Source of the DNA: the human T2T-CHM13v2.0 reference genome, Homo sapiens
DNA length: 64,000 bases
Assembly (NCBI RefSeq): GCF_009914755.1
Contig: NC_060927.1
Strand: one strand, 5' to 3'
In this document: piece after piece, positions 18,509-18,678 of the stretch
How the letters are laid out: every line of letters starts with the position of its first letter
Position numbering within the stretch: position 1 is the stretch's first letter
Notes under the pieces: model-generated
Databases searched by the model: none
Seen by the model: the letters and a program-made list of their open reading frames with translations, nothing else
Told to the model about the DNA's origin: nothing
Program-made: the position numbers and the translations under genes

Positions 18509-18678
18509 TGTGCGACAAGCTCGTCAAAGTTTTCATCGGGGCAGTATTTGCGAGGACGGCCTCGTTGAATATGGCGGCCACGTTTAAACTCTTCATCATC
18601 AACTGTCCAAAAGGACCCAAACTCATCCTCTACTCTGATAAAGCACTTATGCAGTGAGAGGTTGGTGCGAATGGCACC
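18509..18678 (-). CDS. FOXP1: FOXP1 alternative forkhead exon 18b (FOXP1-ES): [56 protein letters not shown](H), 170 nt
   Basis: Acceptor tatcccag, donor ACA|gtaaga. Paralogous to exon 19053-19174 (shared [11 protein letters not shown] and WTVD--EF). Both lengths are 2 mod 3. Confidence 0.95.

What the first reader, a model, noticed from the sequence alone, without database searches (positions are those of the whole stretch)
18547..18585. Exon 18b adds an AT-hook-like motif (KRGRHIQRGRPRK) at the end of the forkhead domain
Seen: the 18b-specific tail reads RGRPRK, preceded by a second KRGR; the canonical exon has only QKRRPQK. Established: RGRP flanked by basic residues is the HMGA-type AT-hook core that binds AT-rich minor grooves. 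Inference: the switch may add a minor-groove reader, in addition to changing helix 3, and so contribute to altered or AT-rich site preference. It could alternatively act as an NLS or arginine-methylation site. I do not recall this being highlighted, but cannot verify novelty.
Basis: partly seen in the sequence, partly recalled or inferred. Interest (0 to 1): 0.7.

Follow-up and report, generated by a model that had tools for sequence, protein, structure and literature searches.

The report
Ancient AT-hook-like tail of FOXP1-ES
The stem-cell-specific alternative exon of human FOXP1 ends its DNA-binding domain with an RGRPRK motif identical to the core of known AT-hooks, and this motif has been kept almost unchanged from insects to humans, so it probably helps this isoform grip DNA, though nobody has tested that.

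Summary
Window 18547-18585 (minus strand) lies in FOXP1 exon 18b (18509-18678) and encodes KRGRHIQRGRPRK; the canonical exon 18 (19053-19174) has only QKRRPQK.

The motif is not a vertebrate addition. RGRPRK marks the "isoform B" forkhead exon across Bilateria. When exons are sorted by helix 3 alone, 108 of 115 distinct B-type sequences carry RGRPRK (shark to human, amphioxus, insects, a barnacle). Of 54 A-type sequences, 53 have no GRP. The Gly is invariant and K/R swaps are almost absent, whereas the A-type basic tail swaps K and R freely. The upstream "KRGR" is a variable vertebrate form of an older KRRH.

RGRPRK matches the core and C-flank of AT-hooks catalogued in HMGA1, HMGA2, CBX2, PATZ1 and ELYS. 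It sits in predicted coil just after the C-terminal helix, where FOXC2's basic wing 2 points to the minor groove.

Pfam's AT_hook model stays below its cut-off (12.8 against 17.4 bits). The published FOXP1-ES motif (CGATACAA) is no more AT-rich than the canonical one.

Best reading, at about 45%: a wing-2-position, AT-hook-type minor-groove or backbone anchor. I found no printed mention of it. Function is untested.

The parts
18509..18678 (-). FOXP1 alternative exon 18b (FOXP1-ES, the isoform-B exon). It encodes helix 3, strands S2 and S3, the C-terminal helix and the basic tail of the forkhead domain.
   Evidence: P0001, 56 aa. Pfam Forkhead matches residues 2-30. 100% identical to 18b-containing FOXP1 isoforms of primates and other mammals.
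18640..18678 (-). Recognition helix region [13 protein letters not shown]. It has Gly and Thr where the canonical exon has the base-contacting Asn and His ([13 protein letters not shown]).
   Evidence: Santos et al. 2010 (PMC3002244, section 19 read) describe these two changes.
18547..18585 (-).
18547..18564 (-). The conserved AT-hook-like core plus C-flank, RGRPRK.
   Evidence: Present in 108 of 115 distinct B-type strings. Columns invariant in the 29-sequence alignment A1. Pfam AT_hook gives 12.8 bits, below the 17.4 cut-off.
18571..18576 (-). The R-H pair upstream of the core (tail positions 4-5), almost as conserved as the core itself.
   Evidence: R in 119 of 121 and H in 120 of 121 distinct B-type strings.
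19053..19174 (-). Canonical exon 18 (A-type), mutually exclusive with 18b. Its tail is QKRRPQK (19061-19081), with no GRP.
   Evidence: No AT_hook hit.
17234..17303 (-). The next constitutive exon. Its first base completes the split codon: His after 18b, Gly after exon 18.
   Evidence: and the hub's annotation table.
18679..18878 (-). Intron directly upstream of 18b, with the densest YGCY cluster of the window. This is probably the splicing-repressor binding region. It concerns regulation of the exon, not the motif.
   Evidence: 11 YGCY in 200 nt, the maximum of all 200-nt windows (mean 2.0, 99th percentile 7).

Best explanation
RGRPRK is the conserved functional core of the C-terminal basic tail of the isoform-B forkhead domain of FoxP/FOXP1.

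The proposed mechanism has four steps:
1. Including exon 18b replaces the second half of the forkhead domain. This is shown.
2. The new helix 3 lacks the two residues that make base-specific hydrogen bonds. The sequence change is shown; the structural consequence comes from Santos et al.'s modelling.
3. Directly after the short C-terminal helix, at the position other forkhead proteins use for wing 2, the B exon supplies an unstructured R-H-x-x-R-G-R-P-R-K segment. The sequence is shown; the lack of structure is predicted.
4. This segment lies in or along the DNA minor groove next to the core site, as an AT-hook does: Arg side chains go into a narrow groove, Gly allows close approach, and Pro fixes the kink. 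This would add affinity and groove-shape readout and offset the weakened major-groove contacts. This step is inferred.

It works like a single AT-hook attached to a major-groove domain. I do not file it as a verified member of the Pfam AT_hook family. A shift of the core motif towards AT-rich sequence is not expected from the evidence. Any effect should appear in the flanks of the site.
For: 1. Identity with real hooks. RGRPRK equals the core plus C-flank of the AT-hooks listed for HMGA1 hook 1, HMGA2 hooks 1 and 3, CBX2, AHCTF1/ELYS, PATZ1, Drosophila lilli and WhiB7 in Supplementary Table S1 of review PMC11354804 (part 1 of 2 read). [quoted passage not shown]

2. Conservation of the kind expected for a shape-fitting motif. 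Of 115 distinct B-type strings sorted by helix 3 alone, 108 have RGRPRK, 5 have another GRP form and 2 have none. Column entropies for R-G-R-P-R-K are 0.07, 0, 0.14, 0.14, 0.30 and 0.36 bits. The Gly is present in 121 of 121. The basic columns of 59 A-type tails have entropies of 0.57-1.32 bits and show free K/R exchange.

3. Breadth. Named carriers are mammals, a bird, squamates, amphibians, gar, sturgeon, teleosts, a shark, amphioxus (three Branchiostoma species and a hybrid assembly), Diptera, Lepidoptera, Hymenoptera and a barnacle.

4. Coupling. The GRP tail goes with the R-T/Y-N helix 3 in 113 of 115 strings and with the R-H-N helix 3 in 1 of 54.

5. Position. In the AlphaFold2 model of a gecko FOXP1 fragment (P0085), the forkhead core has pLDDT 80-94, a helix spans 172-177, RGRPRK (183-188) is coil, and pLDDT is below 50 from 187. 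The fold matches FOXP2, FOXP3 and FOXP4 structures; 2a07_J has TM 0.91 normalised to the target. [quoted passage not shown] Wing 2 is needed for DNA binding by FOXA2 and FOXO1 (PMC6468292, passages read). phmmer alignments to FOXC2, FOXD3/Genesis and FOXA2 chains run to query residue 41, into the RGR.

6. Pfam. AT_hook is the only family besides Forkhead reported for the exon peptide. It was reported for 15 of 20 short B-type fragments and 0 of 10 A-type fragments that I chose for being at most 109 aa.
Against: 1. No B-type sequence reaches Pfam's AT_hook cut-off of 17.4 bits. The human exon scores 12.8 bits, E = 0.12. The 15 of 20 fragments with a hit score 11.5-16.8 bits, and 5 of 20 give no hit. 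Only 2 of 29 full-length proteins list AT_hook at E up to 10.

2. The N-terminal flank is atypical. Q (vertebrates) or S/T (invertebrates) and a hydrophobic residue precede RGRP, where catalogued hooks mostly have K, R, P or G.

3. The binding-array motif reported for FOXP1-ES (CGATACAA) is not more AT-rich than the canonical GTAAACAA (review PMC11701043). I could not see whether the construct used included the tail, because Gabut et al. 2011 is not held.

4. A phmmer search of the tail alone against solved structures found nothing (0 hits at E up to 10).

5. Only one of the five AlphaFold2 models was of usable confidence (mean pLDDT 63.2 against 42.7-46.2). Low confidence is not proof of disorder.

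6. The 115 strings are not independent lineages, and most representatives carry no taxon name.

7. There are no binding data for the motif.
Confidence: 0.45

Rival explanations
1. The tail is a generic electrostatic wing 2. The arginines and lysine contact DNA phosphates non-specifically, as in FOXC2, without AT-hook-type insertion into the groove or any shape readout.
For: In FOXC2, wing 2 makes only backbone contacts, with no base-specific ones. The Pfam AT_hook score is below the cut-off. The N-flank is atypical. One of the three HMGA AT-hook 1 peptides in the crystal bound only phosphates.
Against: Pure electrostatics would tolerate K/R exchange and would not need Gly or Pro. Yet Gly is present in 121 of 121 strings, Pro in 119 of 121, and the two core Arg in 120 and 119 of 121. 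The A-type basic tail in the same position swaps K and R freely.
Confidence: 0.2
2. The basic tail is mainly a nuclear localisation signal, or another importin or partner-binding motif, specific to the B isoform.
For: The equivalent basic cluster of FOXP3 (RKKR, the last residues of the forkhead domain) worked as an NLS in a GFP hybrid and in a C-terminally shortened protein (PMC2774276). FOXP2 is drawn with nuclear localisation signals at the forkhead domain (figure legend only, PMC5126810). Vertebrate KRGR fits the K-K/R-x-K/R monopartite pattern; that consensus is recalled and comes from no call.
Against: The same paper shows RKKR is not an NLS in native full-length Foxp3. KRGR is not conserved: it is KRRH in invertebrates, and KHGR, KSGR or KRGH in some vertebrates. 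NLSs tolerate K/R exchange and do not explain the invariant G, P and H. The N-terminal part of the forkhead domain and the rest of the protein are shared with the nuclear A isoform.
Confidence: 0.15
3. The motif is a regulatory or interaction site. Possibilities are arginine methylation of RGR, binding of RNA or an acidic partner, or (in invertebrates) a kinase site at the S/T just before RGRP that switches DNA binding.
For: The AT-hook review states that post-translational modifications next to hook cores alter binding, and that the second HMGA hook lies in a protein-interaction region. Invertebrate tails read K-R-R-H-L-S/T-RGRPRK (S in 60 and T in 9 of 121).
Against: No data bear on FOXP1. 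Vertebrates have Q at that position, so a phospho-switch cannot be the conserved function. These roles would modulate a DNA contact rather than replace it.
Confidence: 0.1

Closest known systems
HMGA-type AT-hook (Pfam PF02178), used as an auxiliary motif beside a major-groove DNA-binding domain
   Same: R-G-R-P core followed by R-K, identical to the hooks listed for HMGA1 hook 1, HMGA2 hooks 1 and 3, CBX2, PATZ1, ELYS, lilli and WhiB7. It lies in a predicted unstructured segment next to a sequence-specific domain, the arrangement the review's abstract describes as frequent (listing).
   Different: Single copy. Below the Pfam cut-off. The N-flank is Q/S plus a hydrophobic residue instead of K/R/P. 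It is embedded in a longer conserved block (R-H-x-x-RGRPRK-aromatic). Forkhead proteins appear neither in the review's text nor in its 98-row table.
Wing 2 / C-terminal basic region of forkhead domains (FOXC2 RRRR; FOXA and FOXO wing 2)
   Same: Same place in the domain, after S3 and the short C-terminal helix. Both are basic clusters. In FOXC2 it points to the minor groove and contacts the backbone upstream of the core, and in FOXA2 and FOXO1 it is required for binding.
   Different: Wing-2 sequences vary between FOX families and are not GRP motifs. The solved FOXP constructs matched align with the query only up to residue 34-36, before this segment.
FoxP isoform-B alternative forkhead exon (Santos et al. 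2010), known as FOXP1-ES (Gabut et al. 2011)
   Same: This is that exon: His to Thr (and, in vertebrates, Asn to Gly) in helix 3, mutually exclusive with the A exon, and of bilaterian age.
   Different: In Santos et al. the exon comparison in fig. 3B covers only the first 28 residues. The words AT-hook, minor groove, basic, arginine, nuclear localization and C-terminal do not occur in their text. The conserved tail is the new element.
A-type FOXP C-terminal basic cluster (FOXP1 KRRPQK, FOXP3 RKKR)
   Same: It follows the same E-F/Y residue at the end of the domain and begins with the same K-R-R.
   Different: It has no GRP, its K and R vary, and it is shorter. In Foxp3 it is a proteolytic cleavage site and a context-dependent NLS.

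Membership tests
AT-hook (Pfam PF02178 AT_hook, HMGA type) | G-R-P core with Arg before it (R-G-R-P) | tested here: met
   108 of 115 distinct B-type strings have RGRPRK and 5 more have another GRP form. The core definition comes from PMC11354804 and PMC11526092.
AT-hook (Pfam PF02178 AT_hook, HMGA type) | Basic residues (K/R) flanking the core on both sides | tested here: inconclusive
   The C-flank R-K is met: R in 116 and K in 115 of 121. The residue just before the core is Q, S or T and the one before that is I, L or V. The nearest N-side basic residues are R-H, four and three residues before the core. Catalogued hooks mostly have K, R, P or G there.
AT-hook (Pfam PF02178 AT_hook, HMGA type) | Score at or above Pfam's gathering cut-off (17.4 bits) | tested here: not met
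   The human exon peptide scores 12.8 bits, E = 0.12. None of 20 short B-type fragments reaches the cut-off; 15 are listed at 11.5-16.8 bits. 2 of 29 full-length proteins are listed at E up to 10. I could not calibrate what a single genuine hook scores on its own.
AT-hook (Pfam PF02178 AT_hook, HMGA type) | Lies in an intrinsically unstructured segment when free | tested here: inconclusive
   In the AlphaFold2 model the motif is coil, residues 181-190 have mean pLDDT 49, and pLDDT is below 50 from residue 187. This is consistent, but low confidence is not a measurement, and 4 of the 5 models were poor.
AT-hook (Pfam PF02178 AT_hook, HMGA type) | [quoted passage not shown] | not testable with these tools
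   No protein-DNA modelling or assay is available here. The reported FOXP1-ES array motif CGATACAA gives no sign of added AT preference in the core.
Forkhead wing 2 / C-terminal basic region | Basic cluster directly after strand S3 and the C-terminal helix of a forkhead fold | tested here: met
   The Pfam Forkhead match ends at residue 30 of P0001. The model has strands at 157-161 and 166-170, a helix at 172-177, and RGRPRK at 183-188. The fold matches FOXP2, FOXP3 and FOXP4.
Forkhead wing 2 / C-terminal basic region | Contacts the DNA minor groove or backbone upstream of the core site | not testable with these tools
   Known for FOXC2. No structure includes a B-type tail. The tail-only search of PDB sequences gave 0 hits.
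FoxP isoform-B forkhead exon (Santos et al. 2010) | Helix 3 with Thr in place of the base-contacting His, and an exon mutually exclusive and in phase with the A exon | tested here: met
   GAIRTN against NAVRHN. Exon lengths 170 and 122 nt, both 2 mod 3, with AG/GT borders. Description in PMC3002244.
Classical monopartite NLS | Conserved K-K/R-x-K/R cluster (consensus recalled, from no call) | tested here: inconclusive
   Human KRGR fits, but the position varies: KHGR, KSGR, KRAR and KRGH in some vertebrates and KRRH in invertebrates. Import was not testable.

The most novel reading that the evidence does not exclude
The isoform-B forkhead domain of all bilaterian FoxP genes is a composite reader that has been fixed since before the protostome-deuterostome split. 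It combines a deliberately weakened major-groove helix with an obligatory AT-hook in the wing-2 position. Target choice by FOXP1-ES in pluripotent cells, and by FoxP-B in insect neurons, would then depend largely on minor-groove shape in the flanks of the site rather than on the core motif. The hook would also make the isoform selectively sensitive to minor-groove ligands and to arginine modification.
Probability: 0.25. Interest if true: 0.7.

Novelty: new member of a known kind. Interest (0 to 1): 0.55.

Why it matters
Including exon 18b switches FOXP1 from promoting differentiation to supporting pluripotency and reprogramming. So far the switch has been explained only by the two changed residues in the recognition helix (for the structural argument; for a review's account of Gabut et al.).

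An almost invariant AT-hook core, always paired with that altered helix from insects to humans, points to a second DNA-contacting element that was never examined. It suggests how a domain that lost its base-specific hydrogen bonds can still bind DNA with new preferences. It gives a precise mutant to test (RGRP to AGAP) in human, mouse and fly, and it would add forkhead proteins to the list of factors that pair a major-groove domain with an AT-hook.

If the motif proves to be only an import signal or a charge patch, the finding shrinks to an annotation detail.

Tried and rejected
- Tandem duplication. I considered that KRGRHI and QRGRPR arose by an 18-nt tandem duplication (11 of 18 bases match by eye). 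I dropped this because invertebrates read KRRHLS-RGRPRK, so the Gly in vertebrate KRGR is a later substitution.
- A second hook at KRGR. Rejected: it has no Pro and is variable.
- Tail against solved structures. A phmmer search of the 26-residue tail found 0 hits, so it gave neither an AT-hook nor a wing-2 template.
- Naming P0176. A search to name the divergent fragment P0176 found only 8 proteins and did not identify its taxon. P0196 was identified as amphioxus.
- Gabut et al. 2011. The paper could not be opened by PubMed id or DOI. What it says about the tail and about the binding-array constructs is unknown to me. I rely on a review's summary and on other reviews.
- Earlier findings of this scan were not open.
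- The 2025 paper on FoxP evolution (PMC11998571) has none of the six terms I searched in it.
- The FoxP3 structure preprint says nothing on the C-terminal tail or the minor groove.
- Furin-type R-x-x-R cleavage, as at Foxp3 RKKR, bipartite NLS and PY-NLS patterns were considered by eye. None fits the conserved residues. This comparison uses recalled consensus patterns and no call.
- The sub-threshold Pfam DUF7075 hits were not pursued.
- Codon-level selection (dN/dS) could not be tested because no orthologous DNA is available in these collections.
- No complex-prediction job was sent, because the tool does not take DNA.

Full report
**What is in the sequence.**
FOXP1 runs on the minus strand of the window. 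Exon 18b is 18678..18509. It is 170 nt, preceded by a pyrimidine tract and AG, and followed by GTAAG. It translates to [56 protein letters not shown], stored as P0001. The flagged coordinates 18547-18585 give exactly KRGRHIQRGRPRK, and RGRPRK itself is 18547-18564.

Canonical exon 18 (19174..19053, 122 nt) gives [40 protein letters not shown]. Both exons leave two bases over. The split codon is completed by the T that opens the next exon at 17303, giving His after 18b and Gly after exon 18, followed by NPSLIKN. Annotated orthologue isoforms read the same way (...ELVAHNPSLI).

**Is it more than chance?**
In one sequence, only mildly. Shuffles of the Arg-rich 13-mer contain RGRP 2.3% of the time, and shuffles of the whole exon peptide 0.2%. 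The real evidence is conservation.

A search of 5.8 billion proteins with the exon peptide returned 157 hits, of which 120 were listed. These are FOXP1 isoforms carrying this exon from primates, other mammals, a parrot, lizards and snakes, frogs and a newt, gar, sturgeon, many teleosts and a catshark. Their tails read ...EF-KRGRH-[IV]-Q-RGRPRK..., followed by a variable stretch.

An exhaustive HMMER scan of 1.84 billion cluster representatives gave 493 hits, of which 150 were listed. About 90 of these are a second, unnamed group reading [43 protein letters not shown].... Two further searches attached names to such sequences. They belong to the wasps Leptopilina and Cotesia, the butterflies and moths Papilio, Euphydryas, Plutella and Colias, the flies and midges Glossina, Anopheles, Culicoides and Pseudolycoriella, the bee Frieseomelitta, and the barnacle Pollicipes. 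The most divergent one (…KKRHHVKRGRPRKY…) belongs to amphioxus, Branchiostoma.

**Counts.**
I sorted every forkhead second half among the 295 stored proteins by helix 3 alone, so that the tail played no part in the sorting. This gave 115 distinct B-type strings (R-T/Y-N in helix 3). Of these, 108 have RGRPRK, 5 have a near variant (HGRPRK, RGRPKR twice, RGRPRH, RGRPSS), and 2 have no GRP. Those two look like gene models that run into an intron after ...SRG.

Of 54 distinct A-type strings (R-H-N), 53 have no GRP. The one exception (P0211) is an odd fragment whose strands and tail are B-type.

In a looser set of 121 B-type strings, the column entropies over R-G-R-P-R-K are 0.07, 0, 0.14, 0.14, 0.30 and 0.36 bits, and Gly is present in 121 of 121. 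The R-H pair three residues upstream is equally fixed (119 and 120 of 121). By contrast, the basic columns of 59 A-type tails have 0.57-1.32 bits and exchange K and R freely, for example KRRPQK, KRRSQK, KKRSQR, RRKGQK and RRRMTK.

In a 29-sequence alignment spanning vertebrates, amphioxus, insects and the barnacle, the invariant columns of the tail are H, R, G, R, P, R and K.

Two caveats apply. The strings are not independent lineages, and most representatives are unnamed.

The motif is not something the vertebrate exon added. It belongs to the ancestral isoform-B exon. Santos et al. 2010 showed that this exon is shared by arthropods, annelids, molluscs, amphioxus, Ciona and vertebrate FOXP1, and that it arose by tandem exon duplication at the base of Bilateria (PMC3002244, sections 15-17 and 19 read).

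The 'second KRGR' is a vertebrate form of an older KRRH. It varies even within vertebrates (KHGR, KSGR, KRAR, KRGH), so it is not a second hook.

**Comparison with AT-hooks.**
A 2024 review defines the hook as 10-15 residues with a GRP core flanked by K/R, and often P, that fits the narrow minor groove (PMC11354804, passages read). Its Supplementary Table S1 (part 1 of 2 read) lists hooks ending or centred on the same six letters. They are HMGA1 hook 1, HMGA2 hooks 1 and 3, CBX2, AHCTF1/ELYS, PATZ1, Drosophila lilli and mycobacterial WhiB7. [quoted passage not shown] The same paper notes weaker binding to CG-containing DNA, and that one of the three peptides in the crystal touches only phosphates (PMC11526092, passages read).

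- AT_hook is the only family besides Forkhead that is reported for the exon peptide, but at 12.8 bits (E = 0.12) against a cut-off of 17.4. The canonical exon gives nothing.
- From the stored proteins I picked 20 short B-type fragments and 10 short A-type fragments, all at most 109 residues. AT_hook was listed for 15 of the 20 (11.5-16.8 bits, none reaching the cut-off) and for 0 of the 10.
- Among 29 full-length proteins it was listed for only 2.

The N-terminal flank (hydrophobic residue, then Q/S/T) also differs from typical hooks. I therefore say it works like an AT-hook, but I do not file it as a verified family member.

**Position in the fold.**
An AlphaFold2 model was built for a 201-residue gecko FOXP1 fragment with the complete B-type domain, using alignment A1. 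One of the five models was usable (mean pLDDT 63.2; the others 42.7-46.2). It has the forkhead core at pLDDT 80-94, strands at 157-161 and 166-170, and a short helix at 172-177. RGRPRK at 183-188 is in coil, with confidence falling below 50 from residue 187. Foldseek places the model with FOXP3, FOXP2, FOXP4 and FOXP1 structures, in the monomeric winged-helix form (2a07_J and 6xat, target-normalised TM 0.91).

The motif thus sits where other forkhead proteins have wing 2. In the FOXC2-DNA structure, a helix H5 is followed by a coiled wing 2. Its terminal RRRR points to the minor groove and bonds to phosphates upstream of the core. Wing 2 is needed for DNA binding by FOXA2 and FOXO1, and FOXP2 also has a C-terminal helix (PMC6468292, passages read). 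phmmer alignments of the exon peptide with FOXC2, Genesis/FOXD3 and FOXA2 chains run to residue 41, into the RGR. The solved FOXP chains align only up to residue 34-36. No solved structure contains the B-type tail.

**Mechanism.**
- Shown: the exon swap replaces helix 3, and the tail sequence and its conservation are as described above.
- From the literature: the B-type helix 3 loses the His (and, in vertebrates, also the Asn) that make the only base-specific hydrogen bonds in FOXP2. Santos et al. therefore predicted relaxed specificity. By a review's account, binding arrays gave GTAAACAA for FOXP1 and CGATACAA for FOXP1-ES (PMC11701043).
- Inferred: the invariant R-G-R-P-R-K, always coupled to that altered helix, lies in or along the minor groove beside the core. 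There it supplies affinity and shape readout that compensate for the lost contacts.

The absence of K/R exchange and the fixed Gly and Pro argue for a shape-fitting contact rather than a charge patch or an import signal. The array motifs argue against a simple shift of the core towards AT-rich sequence, so any effect should lie in the flanks. I could not check whether the array constructs included the tail.

**Rivals.**
- A non-specific wing-2 charge clamp fits FOXC2 but not the pattern of conservation.
- An import signal has mixed precedent. [quoted passage not shown] FOXP2 figures mark localisation signals at the forkhead domain (legend only).
- Regulatory roles such as Arg methylation, or an S/T just before the core in invertebrates, would modulate a DNA contact rather than replace it.

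**Novelty.**
The exon and its biology are known. I found no printed mention of the hook.
- FOXP1 plus AT-hook: 95 papers, of which 20 were listed. I saw titles and abstract starts only. They co-mention FOXP1 with other AT-hook proteins (HMGA1/2, SETBP1), and none concerns a FOXP1 hook. The other 75 were not inspected.
- foxp + AT-hook + isoform + forkhead domain: 1 paper, a gametogenesis review.
- The string RGRPRK anywhere in text: 28 papers, 24 listed, none on a forkhead protein.
- Three or more of the four terms forkhead domain, AT-hook, minor groove and wing 2: 13 papers, none on FOXP.
- Santos et al.: none of the terms AT-hook, minor groove, basic, arginine, nuclear localization or C-terminal occurs. 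Their exon alignment covers only the first 28 residues.
- The AT-hook review: no forkhead protein in the text, and none in the held 11,351-character supplement text.
- The 2025 FoxP evolution paper: none of six searched terms.
- Not seen: Gabut et al. 2011, its supplements, subscription-journal papers, and UniProt/InterPro feature tables.

**Verdict.**
The motif is a credible single AT-hook-like element in the wing-2 position of an isoform whose recognition helix is weakened. Its function is untested, and formal family membership fails Pfam's threshold. I rate it a new member of a known kind (an auxiliary hook beside a major-groove domain), of moderate interest, with a clear and inexpensive experimental test.

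Noticed in passing
window 18679-18878 and 18309-18508 (minus strand): The 200 nt of intron just upstream of exon 18b hold 11 YGCY motifs. This is the maximum of all 200-nt windows on that strand of the 64-kb window (mean 2.0, 99th percentile 7). The 200 nt downstream hold 7 (98.6th percentile); the flanks of exon 18 hold 3 and 5. This fits the reported repression of 18b by MBNL1 (PMC8189919). That YGCY is the MBNL motif is recalled, from no call.
   Followed up: partly
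window 18547-18585 (minus strand): All five arginine codons of KRGRHIQRGRPRK are CGN, giving 5 CpG in 39 nt. CpG is mutation-prone in mammals (recalled), so keeping these codons fits strong purifying selection. No population or cross-species DNA data were available.
   Followed up: no
P0123-P0215 (invertebrate B-type tails): Invertebrate tails read K-R-R-H-L-S/T directly before RGRPRK (S in 60 and T in 9 of 121 strings). This resembles a basophilic-kinase context next to the hook. Vertebrates have Q there. It could be a lineage-specific phospho-switch; untested.
   Followed up: no
P0003-P0009, P0012-P0015, P0041, P0042, P0047, P0100, P0268, P0282-P0291, P0293, P0294: Many deposited gene models read the mutually exclusive A and B exons in tandem or as hybrids, for example ...[10 protein letters not shown] followed by a B-type segment. 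These are annotation artefacts that create proteins with one and a half or two forkhead second halves.
   Followed up: partly
P0196, P0269-P0281 (Branchiostoma): The amphioxus B-type exon keeps the Asn but has R-Y-N in helix 3 (NAVRYNLSVHSCF) rather than R-T-N, while still keeping RGRPRKY. The tail is more constant than the helix-3 change it accompanies.
   Followed up: no
P0133, P0136, P0142, P0144, P0175, P0208, P0215: Sub-threshold Pfam hits to DUF7075 (PF23272; E 0.0037-0.17, profile positions about 222-260 of 280) cover the B-type strands and tail of invertebrate fragments. They are probably chance and were not examined.
   Followed up: no
window 18511-18678 against 19055-19174: The B-type second half scores lower against Pfam Forkhead (21.4-27.9 bits where it was listed) than the A-type second half (32.3-39.2 bits). 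This agrees with Santos et al.'s conclusion that A is closer to the ancestral form.
   Followed up: no
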